From: a virus | Lineage: Duplodnaviria > Heunggongvirae > Uroviricota > Caudoviricetes | Direction: 5' to 3' (one strand) | Virus record (IMG/VR): IMGVR_UViG_2711768000_000008 | Length of the DNA stretch: 4,624 nucleotides | Shown: positions 1 to 4,624 of the stretch, one piece after another | Position numbering within the stretch: position 1 is the stretch's first letter | Layout of the letters: each line of letters starts with the position of its first letter | The notes under the pieces: generated by a model | What the model was told of the DNA's origin: nothing | Seen by the model: the letters and a program-made list of their open reading frames with translations, nothing else | Database searches by the model: none | Position numbers and translations under genes: made by a program

Positions 1-151
1 CTCTTTAGAGTAACGTTGGGTTTTTCTGCTCATTATTAGCTCCTTCTGATGCCATTCTATTTCAGGAAGGAGTGTCCGTTAAACTCAGGCTACCTCAGGT
101 TATTCGCTTCTGGGCATGGGCGGATCAACAAATGATAGACGGTAATGCAGA

Positions 152-174
152 TTGTAACGCTCGCGGCGTTACAA
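152..174. repeat. Palindrome TTGTAACGC-n5-GCGTTACAA (iteron-like)
   Basis: Perfect 9-bp inverted arms at 152-160 and 166-174, read directly. The core 7-mer recurs at 363-369, 375-381 and 398-404. Confidence 0.5.
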
Positions 175-362
175 AAAGTGCAATAGATCGCATCACTTTT
201 ATGTCTGGTTTTGCTGATGCGTTAATTCAGGTTGGATGGCTGGTCGAAAATGACGGAGGGCTTTCTCTACCTAACTTTGAACGTCATAACGGAAAAAGCT
301 CTAAAAAAAACGGGCGGTTACAAACGAGCGAGTAACAAAAATACGCGAACTGAAACGAAAAG

Positions 363-405
363 GTAACGCTGCCAGCGTTACACAAACGGATCAAAAAGCG
401 TTACC
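363..405. repeat. Palindrome GTAACGCTG-c-CAGCGTTAC plus an extra GCGTTACC half-site (iteron-like)
   Basis: Perfect 19-bp palindrome at 363-381, with a further GCGTTACC at 398-405. It sits in an A-rich, purine-rich stretch of the initiator gene. Confidence 0.5.
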
Positions 406-780
406 AGAGGAAGAGGAAGAGGAAGATCTAAATACTGATCTCCCCCTCGCCAAAAACGAGCGTCTAAAAAATTCGAGCCGGAGGCTATTGAGCTGCCCGA
501 TTGGTTGCCGGAAACACTCTGGCATGAGTGGGTCCGGTTCAGACAGGCATTGCGAAAACCGATTCGAACGGAGCAGGGCGCTAACGGGGCGATACGGGAA
601 CTGGAAAAATTCCGTCAGCAGGGTTTTACACCTGAGCAGGTGATTCGACACAGCATCGCCAATGAATACCAGGGCCTGTTCGCGCCGAAAGGTGTTCGGC
701 CTGAGACGTTGCTCCGACAGGTTAACACCGTCTCGTTGCCGGACAGTGCGATCCCGCCAGGCTTCAGGGGGTAACGGACC

Positions 781-1211
781 ATGAAAAATATTGCGACAGG
801 CGGCGTTCTGGAACGCATCCGCCGACTGACCCCGCCACATGTAACCGCCCCATTCAGAACGGTAGCGGAGTGGCGCGAGTGGCAACTTGCTGAAGGCCAG
901 AAACGTAGCGAGGAGATCAACCGCCTGAATCGCCAGTTGCGGGTGGAAAAAATTCTGAATCGCTCAGGCATCCAGCCGTTGCACCGTAAATGCTCGTTTG
1001 CGAATTACCAGGTGCAGAACGACGGCCAGCGATACGCGTTAAGCCAGGCGAAATCCATCGCCGATGAACTGATGACCGGGTGTACAAATTTTGCGTTCAG
1101 CGGAAAACCTGGTACCGGGAAGAATCACTTAGCGGCAGCTATCGGGAATCGCCTGCTGAAAGACGGTCAGACAGTGATTGTGGTTACCGTGGCTGATGTT
1201 ATGAGCGCCCT
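781..1211 (+). CDS. DnaC-family helicase loader (phage paralog), 5' portion only; 3' end lost in the N run
   Basis: ATG at 781 follows a GGGG run at 767-770. The N-terminus, NRSGIQPLH, CSFANY, and the Walker A block FSGKPGTGKNHLAAAIGN followed by TVADVMSA all track E. coli DnaC as I recall it. Host DnaC is about 245 aa, so the true stop should fall near 1500-1540 inside the mask. The ORF-track extension to 1722 is an artifact of reading through N. Confidence 0.88.
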
Positions 1212-1602
1212 NNNNNNNNNNNNNNNNNNNNNNNNNNNNNNNNNNNNNNNNNNNNNNNNNNNNNNNNNNNNNNNNNNNNNNNNNNNNNNNNNNNNNNNNN
1301 NNNNNNNNNNNNNNNNNNNNNNNNNNNNNNNNNNNNNNNNNNNNNNNNNNNNNNNNNNNNNNNNNNNNNNNNNNNNNNNNNNNNNNNNNNNNNNNNNNNN
1401 NNNNNNNNNNNNNNNNNNNNNNNNNNNNNNNNNNNNNNNNNNNNNNNNNNNNNNNNNNNNNNNNNNNNNNNNNNNNNNNNNNNNNNNNNNNNNNNNNNNN
1501 NNNNNNNNNNNNNNNNNNNNNNNNNNNNNNNNNNNNNNNNNNNNNNNNNNNNNNNNNNNNNNNNNNNNNNNNNNNNNNNNNNNNNNNNNNNNNNNNNNNN
1601 NN
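1212..1602. other. Run of 391 N (undetermined or masked sequence)
   Basis: Literal n characters. It must hold the 3' third of the DnaC-like gene and roughly 60-100 nt more. Confidence 1.
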
Positions 1603-1618
1603 AGTTTCAGGAGGATTT

Positions 1619-2041
1619 ATGGCGAAACCTTTTACTCCCGAACAGCGGGAAGAACTGAAGACGCGAATTGTGGAACTCGTGCATCAGGACGGTCGGGTCA
1701 CGATTCGGCAGTTGTCAGATGAAACAGGTATCAGTCGTGCGTCTGTCGGTCGCTTATGCATAGAACTGGTCGCAAGTGGTGATGTATATAATTCTGGCTA
1801 CGGCTTATTCCCGTCTGAACAGGCTCGCAAGGACTGGCAAAGCGCCCGCAAAAAACTCTCGAGAGTAAAGGTGAGGAAACCGGTTGTTGTTGATCCGGAC
1901 CTTATCTGGTCATTACCTGACGGAGAAATACGCCGCTACGACAGGCGCCTGAATATAATCTGTCGCGAGTGCCGGAAGAGCGAAGCTATGCAGCGTGTAC
2001 TGGCTTTCTATCAGGGTAATTTTCAGGAGGCGATACTGTGA
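1619..2041 (+). CDS. Small HTH-like protein, tentatively Ren family (Rex-exclusion negation); family assignment unverified
   Basis: AGGAGG at 1609-1614, 4 nt before ATG 1619; 140 aa. The segment VTIRQLSDETGISRASVGRLCIEL looks like a helix-turn-helix. The C-terminal CRECRKSEAMQRVLAFY resembles my recollection of the lambda Ren C-terminus, and the position right after the P/DnaC-like gene matches lambda gene order. Confidence 0.6.
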   Translation: MAKPFTPEQREELKTRIVELVHQDGRVTIRQLSDETGISRASVGRLCIELVASGDVYNSGYGLFPSEQARKDWQSARKKLSRVKVRKPVVVDPDLIWSLPDGEIRRYDRRLNIICRECRKSEAMQRVLAFYQGNFQEAIL

Positions 2042-2098
2042 ATGAAATTAGCTATCAGGCTTCAATTACCGCTGGCATTCGCATCAAAGGAGAGGAGC

Positions 2099-2455
2099 AT
2101 GGAAATAAAACCAGAAGATGAGTTAAGCAATATCGTTTTATTTCCGGTAAAAGAGGATGACCCTCGTAATCAGGTTAATTTTCTTTATGAGCCATCGGAA
2201 AGACCATATTGCCATCACGCCTCTGTACGGGTTGACGAAAAAGAGCGTCAGGTCCGCTGTAAAATCTGCGGTGCGGTTGTGGAGCCGTTTGACTGGATGC
2301 TCTCTGTGGCAAAAAGAGAAACCAGACTGGCAGATGATGTAAGGCTATTGCGCCAGGAGGAACAGGAAAGGCGGAGAAATATAGAAAAGCTGATACAGAT
2401 TGAGCGTAACGCGAAAGCGCGGATACGCAGGGCGACAAAATCCAGAACTGAATAA
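2099..2455 (+). CDS. Hypothetical Cys/His zinc-ribbon protein with a charged coiled-coil-like C-terminus
   Basis: AGGAG at 2088-2092, 6 nt before ATG 2099. Contains C-H-H ... C-x2-C (CHHASVRVDEKERQVRCKIC) and then an Arg/Glu-rich helical tail. An in-frame ATG at 2042, immediately after the upstream TGA stop, is an alternative start (AGGAGG sits 12 nt upstream of it). Confidence 0.55.
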   Translation: MEIKPEDELSNIVLFPVKEDDPRNQVNFLYEPSERPYCHHASVRVDEKERQVRCKICGAVVEPFDWMLSVAKRETRLADDVRLLRQEEQERRRNIEKLIQIERNAKARIRRATKSRTE

Positions 2456-2560
2456 TTAAATTTAGCACTGTTAAAAATTTAATCCTTAACCGGAGGGATT
2501 TCTGCACCCTCAAATCATCAGGAGACCACCCGAAAGGGCGGGGAGCAGTCACACATCTGT

Positions 2561-2589
2561 TTCCGATAGCCCCGTTCTAATGCTACACT
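2561..2589 (+). promoter_or_regulatory. Candidate sigma70 promoter for the QueH-like gene
   Basis: TTCCGA at 2561-2566, a 17-nt spacer, then TGcTACACT (extended -10) at 2581-2589. Pattern match only. Confidence 0.3.
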
Positions 2590-2602
2590 CTTTGATATTT
2601 TT

Positions 2603-3289
2603 ATGACCCCAATAAACATATTTATGACAGTTGCTGATTTCAAACGGCCCAAATTGGAGCTCCCAAACGGGGCAAACAAACTACTACTGCACTCTTGCTG
2701 TGCTCCATGTTCCGGTGAGGTGATGGAGGCGCTTCAGGCCTCGGGAATCGACTACACCATCTTTTTCTACAACCCGAACATTCATCCTCAGAAAGAGTAT
2801 TTAATTCGTAAGGATGAGAATATTCGCTTTGCTGAACAACACGGCGTGCCGTTTATTGATGCTGATTACGACACAGACAACTGGTTTGAACGAGCCAAAG
2901 GAATGGAATGGGAGCCCGAACGAGGGATCCGTTGCACCATGTGTTTTGACATGCGTTTTGAGCGGACAGCGCTGTACGCCGCTGAAAATGGTTTCAGTGT
3001 GATCAGCAGTTCACTGGGCATTTCACGCTGGAAAAATATGCAGCAGGTTAACGACTGTGGGCGGCGAGCCGTCGCGCATTATCCGGGCATGGTGTACTGG
3101 GATTATAACTGGCGCAAGCAGGGCGGCTCGTCCCGTATGATTGAAATCAGCAAGCGCGAAAAATTCTATCAGCAGGAATATTGTGGCTGTGTGTATTCTC
3201 TGCGCGATACCAATCTACACCGCAAATCTCAGGGACGCCCTCTTATCAAAATTGGTCAACTCCACTACGGTAAAGAAGAGAAGGAGTGA
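2603..3289 (+). CDS. DUF208/QueH-family protein (putative B12-independent epoxyqueuosine reductase)
   Basis: 228-aa ORF with the N-terminal signature [14 protein letters not shown], which I recognise as the QueH/DUF208 hallmark, plus further Cys pairs (CTMC, CGC). No clear SD at ATG 2603; ATG 2624 is an alternative start. Stop TGA 3287-3289. Confidence 0.72.
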
Positions 3290-3310
3290 TTTTATGGGGC
3301 ACCTTTCTGA

Positions 3311-3340
3311 TTGATTTCATATTGGCGAGGTAAGTAGAAT
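3311..3340 (+). promoter_or_regulatory. Candidate sigma70 promoter reading into the masked region
   Basis: TTGATT at 3311-3316, an 18-nt spacer, TAGAAT at 3335-3340. The same hexamer pair recurs at 3776-3803. Confidence 0.3.
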
Positions 3341-3438
3341 GACTGCGGGTGCTTGAGGCTATCTGCTTCAGGCATGAACACCAAAAGGCAGATAGAGAAA
3401 AGCCCCAGTTAACATTACGCGTCCGGCAAGACGCTTAA

Positions 3439-3688
3439 NNNNNNNNNNNNNNNNNNNNNNNNNNNNNNNNNNNNNNNNNNNNNNNNNNNNNNNNNNNNNN
3501 NNNNNNNNNNNNNNNNNNNNNNNNNNNNNNNNNNNNNNNNNNNNNNNNNNNNNNNNNNNNNNNNNNNNNNNNNNNNNNNNNNNNNNNNNNNNNNNNNNNN
3601 NNNNNNNNNNNNNNNNNNNNNNNNNNNNNNNNNNNNNNNNNNNNNNNNNNNNNNNNNNNNNNNNNNNNNNNNNNNNNNNNNNNNNNNN
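3439..3688. other. Run of 250 N (undetermined or masked sequence)
   Basis: Literal n characters, flanked by a candidate promoter upstream and a strong terminator downstream. Confidence 1.
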
Positions 3689-3710
3689 CATCCTCAACGC
3701 ACCCGCACTT

Positions 3711-3767
3711 AACCCGCCCATCGCTGTGATCTCTCAGCGTTTCGGCGGGTTTTTTGTTGTTTATTTC
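3711..3767 (+). terminator. Rho-independent terminator
   Basis: Outer stem CCCGCC (3713-3718) pairs with GGCGGG (3744-3749); inner stem CGCTG (3722-3726) pairs with CAGCG (3735-3739). Followed by TTTTTTGTTGTTTATTT. An in-frame TAA at 3710-3712 sits just before the stem. Confidence 0.7.
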
Positions 3768-3775
3768 CGGTGAAT

Positions 3776-3803
3776 TTGATTCGCGCACCTTCGCAGATAG
3801 AAT
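3776..3803 (+). promoter_or_regulatory. Candidate sigma70 promoter for the downstream cassette
   Basis: TTGATT at 3776-3781, a 16-nt spacer, TAGAAT at 3798-3803, directly after the terminator. Confidence 0.35.
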
Positions 3804-3837
3804 CGACTCACTTAAGTAGCGCGCAGGGAGAAGAGGG

Positions 3838-3882
3838 ATGGACCCCGAACAGGGGAGAGCTATTTATCTGGAAGGATTCTGA
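3838..3882 (+). CDS. Possible 14-codon leader ORF (MDPEQGRAIYLEGF)
   Basis: Strongest SD in the region (AGGGAG 3825-3830, GAGGG 3833-3837) precedes ATG 3838. Its TGA stop at 3880-3882 ends 2 nt before the next ATG. Confidence 0.2.
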   Translation: MDPEQGRAIYLEGF

Positions 3883-3884
3883 AG

Positions 3885-4172
3885 ATGAAAATCGAAGAAT
3901 TGCGTGAAATTTTTAGTGAAAATGGCCTCTATGCTGTGCGCGTTGAGAATGGAGCGATTGTCAGCCATTGCCGCATTAGATGTTTGCAATCTCAACAAAG
4001 GAAGAGCGGTGCTGTGTTATTTTATTTTTGTAATGGACTTCTGACGGACGGTTTTATTTTGCGTGAGGACGAATTTGTCACATCATTACGGGTTTTGAAA
4101 GAGATTGGTTTTAAGGCTGGTTTTCTGCTTTTGCTGAAGAATAAACTCATCTACAATCTTGAGCAGGATTGA
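3885..4172 (+). CDS. Hypothetical 95-aa protein, AT-rich, no family recognised
   Basis: ATG 3885 is the first start in an ORF that opens at 3816; GAAGG at 3871-3875. Visibly AT-richer than the neighbouring genes. Stop TGA 4170-4172. Confidence 0.55.
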   Translation: MKIEELREIFSENGLYAVRVENGAIVSHCRIRCLQSQQRKSGAVLFYFCNGLLTDGFILREDEFVTSLRVLKEIGFKAGFLLLLKNKLIYNLEQD

Positions 4173-4210
4173 ACTCCTGCTGTGTAACACCGTGCCACCG
4201 GAGAAAGCCG

Positions 4211-4564
4211 ATGGCACATATACAACTGGTCAAACAAACCTCTTCCGGATTACTTCTCCCGGCGACGCCGGAGAGTTGCGATTTTCTGCATCAAATCAAA
4301 ATAGGTGAGTGGATACACGCAGACTTTAAGCGTGTGTGTAACTACGCATTCCACAAGCGTTTTTTCAAACTCCTGCAACTGGGTTTCGATTACTGGACTC
4401 CGGTCGGTGGGGCGATCACGCCTCGCGAACGAAAACTGGTGTCCGGTTTCGTTGATTACCTGTGTGAATCAGTAGGCCGGGAACATACGCCAGCTCTGAG
4501 CGAAGCCGCAGAGCAATTGAGGTGTACTGGCAATAGCGGACACTACCATTTGTTCTTTTTTTAA
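4211..4564 (+). CDS. Hypothetical 117-aa protein, no family recognised
   Basis: GGAG at 4200-4203, 7 nt before ATG 4211. The ORF track starts it at TTG 4169, which has no SD. Ends in a T7 run (FFF then TAA 4562-4564). Confidence 0.55.
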   Translation: MAHIQLVKQTSSGLLLPATPESCDFLHQIKIGEWIHADFKRVCNYAFHKRFFKLLQLGFDYWTPVGGAITPRERKLVSGFVDYLCESVGREHTPALSEAAEQLRCTGNSGHYHLFFF

Positions 4565-4624
4565 GCAGCCATCTGATGATATTTTTCCCTGAAGGCTGCC
4601 GGGGAGATATTCCCCAGACGAGAG

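What the first reader, a model, noticed from the sequence alone, without database searches (positions are those of the whole stretch)
3311..3767. Promoter-to-terminator unit of about 410 nt whose body is masked
A TTGATT-n18-TAGAAT promoter at 3311-3340 is followed by an 8-bp inverted repeat (CTATCTGC 3359-3366 / GCAGATAG 3388-3395). The 250-nt N run comes next, then a TAA at 3710-3712 and a strong terminator. No complete ORF is visible in the flanks. The hidden body could hold a small protein gene ending at 3712 or a structured non-coding RNA.
Basis: partly seen in the sequence, partly recalled or inferred. Interest (0 to 1): 0.55.

Follow-up and report, generated by a model that had tools for sequence, protein, structure and literature searches.

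The report
Prophage hok/sok toxin-antitoxin locus, masked
The masked promoter-to-terminator unit is an ordinary hok/mok/sok type I toxin-antitoxin locus of a decayed lambda-like prophage, almost identical to the already studied hokW-sokW of Shiga-toxin phages and present in most E. coli genomes.

Summary
The unit is a known element, a hok/mok/sok type I toxin-antitoxin locus.

The visible flanks already show this. Rfam RF01794 (hok/sok locus) matches 3347-3406 and is cut off by the mask. The first 12 transcript bases (3347-3358) are complementary to 3692-3704, which is the tac/fbi fold-back pairing typical of hok mRNAs.

An unmasked IMG/VR contig (L137) is 100% identical to all visible parts of the window. 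It shows that the 250 N stand for 287 nt. These hold:
- a 70-codon mok ORF
- a 51-codon hok ORF (Pfam HOK_GEF, 81 bits), one residue different from the experimentally toxic HokW of phage 933W/Sp5
- on the minus strand, the promoter and 5' tail of a ~71-nt Sok antisense RNA, whose 3' hairpin is visible at 3398-3438

The full Rfam match scores 117 bits (threshold 59). The hok stop lies inside the mask, so TAA 3710-3712 is 3'-UTR sequence.

Related loci occur in 4713 of 5426 complete E. coli genomes. Novelty: already known. Interest: low.

The parts
3311..3340 (+). hok/mok mRNA promoter: -35 TTGATT (3311-3316), 18-nt spacer, -10 TAGAAT (3335-3340)
   Evidence: Consensus scan. The -10 TAGAAT/TAAGAT sits at a fixed distance from the GGGTGC start in most of the 53 different upstream contexts, whereas the -35 region varies. 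The -35 assignment is inferred.
3347..3757 (+). Full-length hok (mok-hok) mRNA. It spans 411 nt in window coordinates and 448 nt in reality, because the 250 N hide 287 nt.
   Evidence: Rfam RF01794 starts at 3347. On the unmasked identical contig L137 the match is full length, 117 bits against a gathering score of 59. The fold of the 448-nt RNA gives -191.2 kcal/mol, z = -7.96. The 3' end is inferred from the terminator.
3347..3358 (+). tac element (GGGUGCUUGAGG), the 5' end of the mRNA. It pairs with fbi in the full-length RNA and with ucb in the processed RNA.
   Evidence: In the MFE structure nt 1-12 pair with nt 383-395. The Rfam consensus structure pairs nt 1-8 with nt 52-58.
3349..3375 (+). 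Candidate metastable 5' hairpin of the nascent transcript (nt 3-13 / 19-29)
   Evidence: It appears in the MFE and centroid of 3'-truncated RNA. An equivalent structure is described for R1 hok mRNA (PMC9841398).
3347..3406 (+). tac stem-loop.
   Evidence: Rfam alignment to model positions 1-58, 53.9 bits, E = 2.3e-10. Inverted repeat I1. In the full-length fold GCCCC pairs with the mok SD GAGGC.
3398..3438 (-). Visible 3' part of the Sok antisense RNA gene (terminator hairpin and U tail). The remaining ~30 nt (5' single-stranded tail) and its promoter TTGCCT-17-TAACCT lie inside the mask.
   Evidence: Positional homology to the annotated sokW misc_RNA of phage 933W. The 71-nt RNA folds into a 15-nt 5' tail plus a long hairpin plus UUU, -28.6 kcal/mol, z = -4.7. 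The promoter was read from the - strand and is too weak for the consensus scan.
3439..3688 (.). Masked body. The 250 N stand for 287 nt (L137 11946-12232) holding the mok SD, the mok ORF (70 codons), the hok ORF (51 codons, same frame and stop), dcb, the Sok promoter and 5' tail (- strand), and a GC-rich 3'-UTR hairpin.
   Evidence: L137 is 100% identical to all visible window segments. Sequence and ORFs. Pfam HOK_GEF 81.1 bits on the identical ORF in L003. 98 related loci have 277-287 nt between the same flanks, and all carry a recognisable hok reading frame, one with an internal stop.
3692..3704 (+). fbi (fold-back inhibition) element CCUCAACGCACCC, complementary to tac
   Evidence: RNAduplex gives -21.5 kcal/mol, and 3 of 300 shuffled tac sequences do as well. 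It sits 56 nt after the hok stop, the same place as in R1-type loci.
3711..3755 (+). Intrinsic terminator: outer stem 3711-3718/3744-3751, inner stem CGCTG/CAGCG, then a T run
   Evidence: -22.8 kcal/mol, z = -4.9.

Best explanation
The interval is a complete hok/mok/sok type I toxin-antitoxin locus of the hokW/hokD subfamily, sitting in the early-gene region of an IS-disrupted lambdoid prophage.

Shown by sequence:
- A constitutive-type promoter (3311-3340) drives a ~448-nt mRNA starting at G3347.
- The mRNA carries a 70-codon mok frame and, in the same frame, the 51-codon hok toxin frame.
- On the opposite strand, a ~71-nt Sok RNA is encoded from its own promoter, across the mok start.

Inferred by homology to R1 hok/sok and 933W/Sp5 hokW-sokW:
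1. The full-length mRNA is locked by pairing of its 5' end (tac, 3347-3358) with fbi (3692-3704). In this form the mok Shine-Dalgarno is sequestered by the ucb box (3402-3406), so the RNA is neither translated nor bound by Sok.
2. Slow 3' trimming removes the terminator and fbi.
4. While Sok is made, its 5' tail pairs across the mok start and the duplex is cut by RNase III.
5. When unstable Sok is no longer replenished (loss of the element, or prophage induction), mok translation opens hok translation, and the membrane peptide Hok depolarises or kills the cell.

The likely role is addiction/stabilisation of the prophage remnant, and/or help with lysis on induction as reported for hokW-sokW.
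For: 1. Rfam. RF01794 matches window 3347-3406 on the + strand (53.9 bits, E = 2.3e-10, model positions 1-58 of 157, cut by the mask). On the unmasked source-identical contig L137 and on E. coli FDAARGOS_944 the match is full length: 117 bits against a gathering score of 59.
2. Source sequence. L137 is 100% identical to window 1-1211, 1603-3438 and 3689-4624. Its hidden 287 nt contain mok (70 aa) and hok (51 aa).
3. Protein. Pfam HOK_GEF scores 81.1 bits against a cut-off of 22. PGAP annotates the identical gene as 'type I toxin-antitoxin system toxin HokD'. The peptide is 98% identical to the EDL933 Hok and differs from 933W HokW at 1 of 51 residues.
4. Annotated relative. The 933W record annotates sokW, mokW and hokW at the homologous positions. 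hokW-sokW has been shown experimentally to be a type I TA system that depends partly on RNase III and Hfq (PMC8621323).
5. tac/fbi pairing. It is in the MFE structure of the full-length RNA, which folds far better than shuffles (z = -7.96). The pairing co-varies between subfamilies at the same position, 47-56 nt after the hok stop: GGGUGC/GCACCC here, GGCGC/GCGCC in R1-type loci, GGUGC/GCACC in pHCM1.
6. SD sequestration. In the full-length fold the mok SD pairs with ucb. When tac/ucb is imposed on two of the four truncations tried (ends at nt 362 and 366), the SD pairs with GCCUC, the dcb position, as in the R1 model (PMC9841398).
7. Sok. The RNA folds as a 5' tail plus a terminator hairpin (z = -4.7).
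Against: - Nothing here measures transcription, processing, toxicity or antitoxin activity. The mechanism is carried over from homologues.
- For 3'-truncated RNA, the thermodynamic prediction prefers the closed form (metastable 5' hairpin plus SD/ucb) over the tac/ucb 'open' form by about 15 kcal/mol. The activation switch is therefore not reproduced by MFE folding. With the two longer truncations the imposed tac/ucb fold did not pair the SD with the dcb position.
- The Sok promoter (TTGCCT-17-TAACCT) and the hok -35 are weak matches to consensus.
- Relative to its nearest relatives this variant lacks 10 nt between TTGATT and TAGAAT, so its -35 is a different hexamer from theirs.
- The surrounding prophage is broken by IS600, so the biological role in this host is uncertain.
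Confidence: 0.95

Rival explanations
1. It is a hok/sok locus by descent but functionally dead in this host, a relic carried along in a decaying prophage as several chromosomal hok loci of laboratory E. coli are. In that case neither killing nor stabilisation occurs.
For: The prophage segment is bracketed by IS600 copies that interrupt a replication gene and a DUF1367 gene, and the DNA beyond the right copy is rearranged. A 10-nt deletion relative to close relatives displaces the TTGGCG -35 used by those relatives. From general knowledge (Pedersen and Gerdes 1999, not checked here), most K-12 chromosomal hok loci are inactivated. One of 98 related loci has an in-frame stop in hok.
Against: Every element is intact: the -10, tac, ucb, mok, hok, the Sok promoter, fbi and the terminator. 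Rfam scores 117 bits over the full model. The same 287-nt body is found unchanged in 15 of the 22 fetched loci that share both exact flanks, and the whole 448-nt locus is 100% identical in both FDAARGOS chromosomes. The peptide differs by one C-terminal residue from HokW, which is toxic when expressed (PMC8621323). TTGATT at 18 nt is as good a -35 as the one it replaces.
Confidence: 0.12
2. The unit is a stand-alone structured non-coding RNA with no protein product.
For: The RNA is very structured (z = -7.96), and the only Rfam hit is to an RNA family.
Against: The hidden body holds a conserved 51-codon ORF with a strong Pfam HOK_GEF match. Across 98 loci the ORF is kept open in 97.
Confidence: 0.01
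3. A small protein gene runs through the mask and ends at TAA 3710-3712.
For: A TAA is present at 3710-3712, just before the terminator.
Against: In the identical unmasked contig, mok and hok stop at L137 12177-12179, 53 nt before the visible flank resumes. No ORF of 25 aa or more on the + strand ends at the position equivalent to 3712. The stretch 3692-3704 is the fbi RNA element.
Confidence: 0.01

Closest known systems
hokW-sokW (with mokW) of Stx2 phages 933W / Sp5 (VT2-Sakai)
   Same: Same architecture and nearly the same sequence from the -10 through fbi (alignment A1). Hok is 50/51 identical. mok is in frame with hok, 57 nt upstream. Sok is at the same position. Both are prophage-borne. 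hokW-sokW is experimentally a type I TA system and assists lysis and phage release after mitomycin C (PMC8621323).
   Different: - The genomic neighbourhood differs. Here the locus lies between queH and a rem-like ORF in the replication/nin-like region of a Rac/Qin-like prophage. In 933W it lies near the right end of the genome.
- The sequence 3' of fbi, including the terminator, is unrelated.
- The Sok 5' tail / mok start patch differs at several bases, so cross-recognition is not guaranteed.
- The -35 region differs.
hokD (relF) and other chromosomal or prophage hok loci of E. coli (hokA-E family)
   Same: PGAP names the identical gene hokD. The most common relatives in IMG/VR encode a peptide ending ...VFTAYEPEE, which from memory is the K-12 HokD sequence. 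Loci of this type occur in 4713 of 5426 complete E. coli genomes, with a median of 2 per genome.
   Different: From general knowledge, the K-12 hokD sits downstream of relBE and lacks the mok/sok leader. A relBE-linked plasmid Hok (L128) likewise gave no Rfam leader match. The present locus has the full leader, Sok and fbi.
hok/sok (parB) of plasmid R1 and F-type plasmids
   Same: Same gene order and the same RNA logic: tac/fbi, ucb/SD, dcb, and Sok across the mok start. The same Rfam family matches (L124/L125: 89-93 bits). fbi lies at the same distance after the hok stop. The mechanism is documented in PMC9841398.
   Different: Hok is only 44% identical. In R1-type loci mok is out of frame with hok (58-nt offset), whereas here it is in frame (57 nt). 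The tac/fbi sequences differ by compensatory changes. R1-type loci are plasmid-borne and act in post-segregational killing, whereas this one is in a prophage.

Membership tests
[quoted passage not shown] | Match to the hok/sok leader covariance model at or above Rfam's gathering score | tested here: met
   On the masked window the match is 53.9 bits, below the threshold of 59, because only model positions 1-58 are visible. On the source-identical unmasked contig L137 it is 117 bits over positions 1-157. FDAARGOS_944 gives the same result.
[quoted passage not shown] | ORF of about 50 codons encoding a Hok/Gef-family membrane peptide | tested here: met
   A 51-aa ORF at L137 12024-12179. Pfam HOK_GEF scores 81.1 bits against a cut-off of 22 on the identical sequence. 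NCBIfam Hok-subfamily models score below their cut-offs (55 against 73), so it is not an equivalog of HokA.
[quoted passage not shown] | Upstream overlapping mok reading frame with its own SD, needed for hok translation | tested here: met
   A 70-codon ORF starts 57 nt upstream of hok, in frame, preceded by GAGG. 933W annotates the same arrangement as mokW. Translational coupling itself cannot be tested with these tools.
[quoted passage not shown] | cis-encoded antisense Sok RNA (about 65-70 nt: single-stranded 5' tail plus terminator hairpin) overlapping the mok translation start, with its own promoter | tested here: met
   It aligns with the annotated sokW. The fold is a 15-nt tail plus hairpin plus U tail, z = -4.7. 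The promoter TTGCCT-17-TAACCT was read on the - strand. It falls below the consensus scan threshold, so expression is inferred.
[quoted passage not shown] | Long-range tac/fbi pairing between the 5' end and the 3' UTR of the full-length mRNA | tested here: met
   Twelve pairs form between nt 1-12 and nt 383-395 in the MFE and centroid structures. The pairing is visible in the masked window itself. Compensatory differences against R1-type and pHCM1 loci occur at the same position.
[quoted passage not shown] | Sequestration of the mok SD by ucb in the full-length RNA, and a switch to tac/ucb plus SD/dcb after 3' processing | tested here: inconclusive
   SD/ucb pairing is present in the full-length MFE structure. 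The tac/ucb hairpin matches the Rfam consensus structure, and SD/dcb forms when tac/ucb is imposed on RNAs ending at nt 362 or 366. However, the open form is predicted to be about 15 kcal/mol less stable than the closed form for truncated RNAs.
[quoted passage not shown] | Hok is toxic, Sok neutralises it post-transcriptionally, Sok is unstable and hok mRNA is stable | not testable with these tools
   Shown for hokW-sokW (PMC8621323) and for R1 (PMC9841398), not for this copy.

The most novel reading that the evidence does not exclude
The most novel reading still open concerns Sok specificity. The only variable patch inside an otherwise almost invariant transcript is the Sok 5' tail / mok start (transcript nt 103-122). 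This patch could be a specificity code that keeps the several hok/sok copies of one genome (median 2, up to 9) from cross-neutralising each other. If so, this copy would be an orthogonal, still active addiction or lysis-assist module holding an IS600-riddled prophage fragment in place.
Probability: 0.25. Interest if true: 0.3.

Novelty: already known. Interest (0 to 1): 0.07.

Why it matters
It matters little as a discovery. hok/sok is one of the best-studied type I toxin-antitoxin systems. This subtype is annotated in phage 933W and was characterised experimentally in Sp5. It is present in most E. coli genomes, and Hok genes are known to be enriched in prophages (bioRxiv 10.1101/2025.08.07.668861).

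The useful outcomes are practical:
- The masked unit is fully explained.
- A hok locus can be recognised from its flanks alone: the tac/fbi complementarity plus a truncated Rfam hit.
- The N-run lengths in this window do not reflect the true lengths, which affects any length- or frame-based reasoning about masked windows.

Tried and rejected
1. Source search in genome contigs. Two exact-pattern scans (the 3' flank 60-mer and the DUF1367/IS600 junction) found nothing. The source was instead found in viral contigs.
2. Terminator scan. The simple scan found no terminator in 3200-3900 because the loop exceeds its limit. Folding was used instead.
3. Covariation within the subfamily. Across 95 unique hokW/hokD-type loci, tac is invariant and fbi nearly so, so this set was uninformative. 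Comparison with R1-type and pHCM1 loci was needed. For the R1-type loci L124/L125 and for L130, the duplex energy of tac with the 3' UTR is not significantly better than for shuffled tac (33-110 of 300 shuffles reach it). The argument there rests on position and compensatory bases, not on energy.
4. Plasmid Hok loci without a leader. Three loci (L127-L129) gave no Rfam leader match and were left out.
5. Folding of 3'-truncated RNAs. MFE folding did not reproduce the expected open (tac/ucb) conformation.
6. Minus-strand ORFs across the mask. 3368-3721 and 3435-3788 are artefacts of translating N. In the unmasked sequence the longest - strand ORF is 43 aa, with no support.
7. Composite transposon. 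I considered that the IS600-bracketed segment was one, and rejected this for the left copy, which has its own 3-bp target duplication (GGT) at an otherwise colinear site.
8. Weak Rfam hit. The ceN48 snoRNA hit (18.4 bits against 70, E = 0.67) is chance.

Full report
**Observation**

The window is a piece of a lambdoid prophage. It carries a replication-region gene, a DnaC/YdaV-like gene interrupted by the first mask, a DUF977 gene, queH at 2603-3289, the finding itself, and then a 95-aa ORF and a DUF1367 gene.

- The promoter-like site TTGATT-18-TAGAAT lies at 3311-3340. The local region has two such sites against 0.5 expected.
- The 8-bp inverted repeat is the core of a 19-nt imperfect hairpin, 3348-3366 / 3388-3406.
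- The 250-N run spans 3439-3688.
- The TAA is at 3710-3712.
- The terminator hairpin is 3711-3751 followed by a T run. The simple scan misses it because of its long loop, but it folds at -22.8 kcal/mol with z = -4.9.

TGCGGGTGC 3344-3352 pairs perfectly with GCACCCGCA 3699-3707, and 12 pairs form between 3347-3358 and 3692-3704.

**What the flanks alone say**

A scan of the masked window against Rfam gives a single hit, RF01794 ('sok antitoxin'). The model in fact covers the hok mRNA leader on the hok strand. The hit is at 3347-3406 on the + strand, 53.9 bits, E = 2.3e-10, model positions 1-58 of 157, and it stops because the mask begins.

Model position 1 falls on G3347, seven bases after the -10 hexamer. 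A 5' end that pairs with a segment just upstream of the terminator is the tac/fbi fold-back that characterises hok mRNAs (mechanism summarised in PMC9841398).

**Recovering the hidden body**

- The 5' flank matches 67 phage records. In 933W and VT2-Sakai the feature under the match is 'sokW: SokW antisense RNA', followed by mokW and hokW.
- Two complete E. coli chromosomes (FDAARGOS_944 and FDAARGOS_943) match both flanks at 100% and 99.9%. They annotate 'type I toxin-antitoxin system toxin HokD' between them.
- An IMG/VR contig, L137 (IMGVR_UViG_2671180821_000008), is 100% identical to all three visible segments of the window, including both IS ends. It is the source or an exact copy.

In L137 the second mask corresponds to 287 nt, not 250, and the first to 314 nt, not 391. 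The N-run lengths are therefore not faithful, and the unit is about 448 nt long. Among 98 related loci with the same flank motifs the hidden distance is always 277-287 nt. Each holds a recognisable hok reading frame, and one of them has an internal stop.

**Anatomy of the unmasked locus** (L137; window x = L137 x-8507 for the 5' flank and x-8544 for the 3' flank)

- RF01794 now matches over its whole length, 117 bits against a gathering score of 59.
- mok is a 70-codon ORF at L137 11967-12179.
- hok is the 51-codon ORF at 12024-12179, in the same frame. Its product is MKQQKAMLIALIVICLTVIVTALVTRKDLCEVRIRTGQTEVAVFVDYESRK.
- The peptide scores 81.1 bits on Pfam HOK_GEF. It differs from 933W HokW at one residue and is 44% identical to R1 Hok.
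- The stop codon lies 53 nt before the visible 3' flank resumes, so TAA 3710-3712 is 3'-UTR sequence between fbi and the terminator.
- On the minus strand, by alignment to the annotated sokW, a 71-nt Sok RNA runs from inside the mask to window 3398. Its promoter TTGCCT-17-TAACCT also lies inside the mask.
- Sok folds into a 15-nt single-stranded 5' tail, complementary to the mok start region, followed by a long hairpin and a U tail (-28.6 kcal/mol, z = -4.7).

**RNA logic**

The 448-nt full-length RNA folds at -191.2 kcal/mol, against -139.4 +/- 6.5 for shuffles (z = -7.96). The MFE and centroid structures are identical. In this structure nt 1-12 (tac) pair with nt 383-395 (fbi), and the mok Shine-Dalgarno GAGGC pairs with GCCCC (ucb, window 3402-3406). 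This is the closed, untranslatable and Sok-refractory form described for R1.

The Rfam consensus structure pairs tac with ucb instead. When I impose that pairing on truncated RNA ending at nt 362 or 366, the SD pairs with GCCUC at the dcb position, again as in R1. With the two longer truncations it did not. Truncated RNAs also show a 5' hairpin (nt 3-13 / 19-29) equivalent to the metastable structure of nascent hok mRNA.

One caveat applies. The thermodynamic prediction favours the closed form over the open form of truncated RNA by about 15 kcal/mol. The switch is therefore inferred from homology, not reproduced by folding.

**Comparative test of tac/fbi**

Within 95 unique hokW/hokD-type loci, tac is invariant, which is uninformative. 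Across subfamilies the pairing is kept by changes on both sides, always 47-56 nt after the hok stop:
- GGGUGC/GCACCC in this locus
- GGCGC/GCGCC in R1-type loci (L124, L126)
- GGUGC/GCACC in pHCM1 (L130)

**Mechanism and role**

The steps shown here are sequence-level: the promoter, the ORFs, the antisense gene, the pairings and family membership. The following steps are inferred from R1 hok/sok (PMC9841398) and from hokW-sokW (PMC8621323):
- slow 3' trimming of the full-length mRNA
- refolding to the open form
- Sok binding and RNase III cleavage
- mok-coupled hok translation
- membrane damage by Hok

For hokW-sokW, toxicity, neutralisation by Sok from its own promoter, and partial dependence on RNase III and Hfq were demonstrated. 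The locus was also found to assist lysis and phage release after mitomycin C (PMC8621323).

The role here is stabilisation of the prophage remnant or lysis assistance, and is not determined. I put about 0.12 on the locus being a silent relic. It is intact in every element, but its prophage is broken by IS600, and its -35 differs from that of close relatives because of a 10-nt deletion.

**Comparison, novelty and score**

This is a member of a known family and of a known subfamily. The same kind of locus occurs in 4713 of 5426 complete E. coli genomes, with a median of two copies, and in over a hundred IMG/VR contigs. Enrichment of hok in prophages is already documented (10.1101/2025.08.07.668861).

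Differences from hokW-sokW are minor: the neighbourhood, the terminator, the -35, and a few bases in the Sok tail.

Verdict: already known, interest 0.07.

Noticed in passing
window 1212-1602 and 3439-3688: The N-run lengths do not equal the hidden lengths. In the 100%-identical contig L137, 391 N stand for 314 nt and 250 N stand for 287 nt. Taken literally, the first run would put the YdaV/DnaC-like gene (start 781) out of frame with its stop.
   Followed up: yes
window 1-98 and 4518-4624 (L137 7419-8682 and 13062-14326): Both window ends are ends of IS600 (IS3 family). Two direct, 99.8%-identical copies bracket window 99-4517. The left copy has its own 3-bp target duplication (GGT) inside a replication-region gene. 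The right copy interrupts the DUF1367 gene and is followed by DNA that is not colinear with the intact prophage of FDAARGOS_944. The prophage is therefore defective. From memory, IS600 is typical of Shigella-like genomes.
   Followed up: partly
hidden body, transcript nt 103-122 (L137 11956-11975): Across 95 unique related loci the transcript is almost invariant, except for a patch at the mok start and Sok 5' tail, where 16-26% of loci differ from the majority base against 10% or less elsewhere. This allele and sokW differ there. It could be a specificity determinant between co-resident hok/sok copies.
   Followed up: partly
window 3311-3340: Close relatives (HannyBb type) have 10 extra bases between TTGATT and TAGAAT and would use TTGGCG-17-TAGAAT. 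In this allele the deletion brings TTGATT to 18 nt instead. The -10 and its distance to the start are conserved, but the -35 is not.
   Followed up: partly
hidden body (L137 11967-12179) compared with L124/L125/L126: mok is in frame with hok here, in 933W and in pHCM1 (57-nt offset, giving an N-terminally extended Hok). It is out of frame in R1-type loci (58-nt offset).
   Followed up: yes
window 2603-3289: A prophage-borne epoxyqueuosine reductase QueH gene (228-aa ORF; annotated as such in RefSeq relatives) lies directly upstream of the hok promoter. This is a tRNA-modification gene carried by the phage. In the intact relative, a tRNA cluster (Ile, Arg, Thr, Gly) lies about 2 kb downstream.
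   Followed up: no
window 3776-3803 and 3885-4172: A second TTGATT-16-TAGAAT promoter-like site lies just after the hok terminator, upstream of a 95-aa ORF annotated 'rem' or hypothetical in PPompW/Rac-type phages. Its -10 overlaps GCAGATAG, which matches the hok leader repeat (I3). This is probably chance.
   Followed up: no
L128 (Enterobacter cloacae plasmid pECLA): A Hok gene directly downstream of relB-relE shows no Rfam hok/sok leader. It resembles the relBEF arrangement, where hok has lost its own RNA control region.
   Followed up: no
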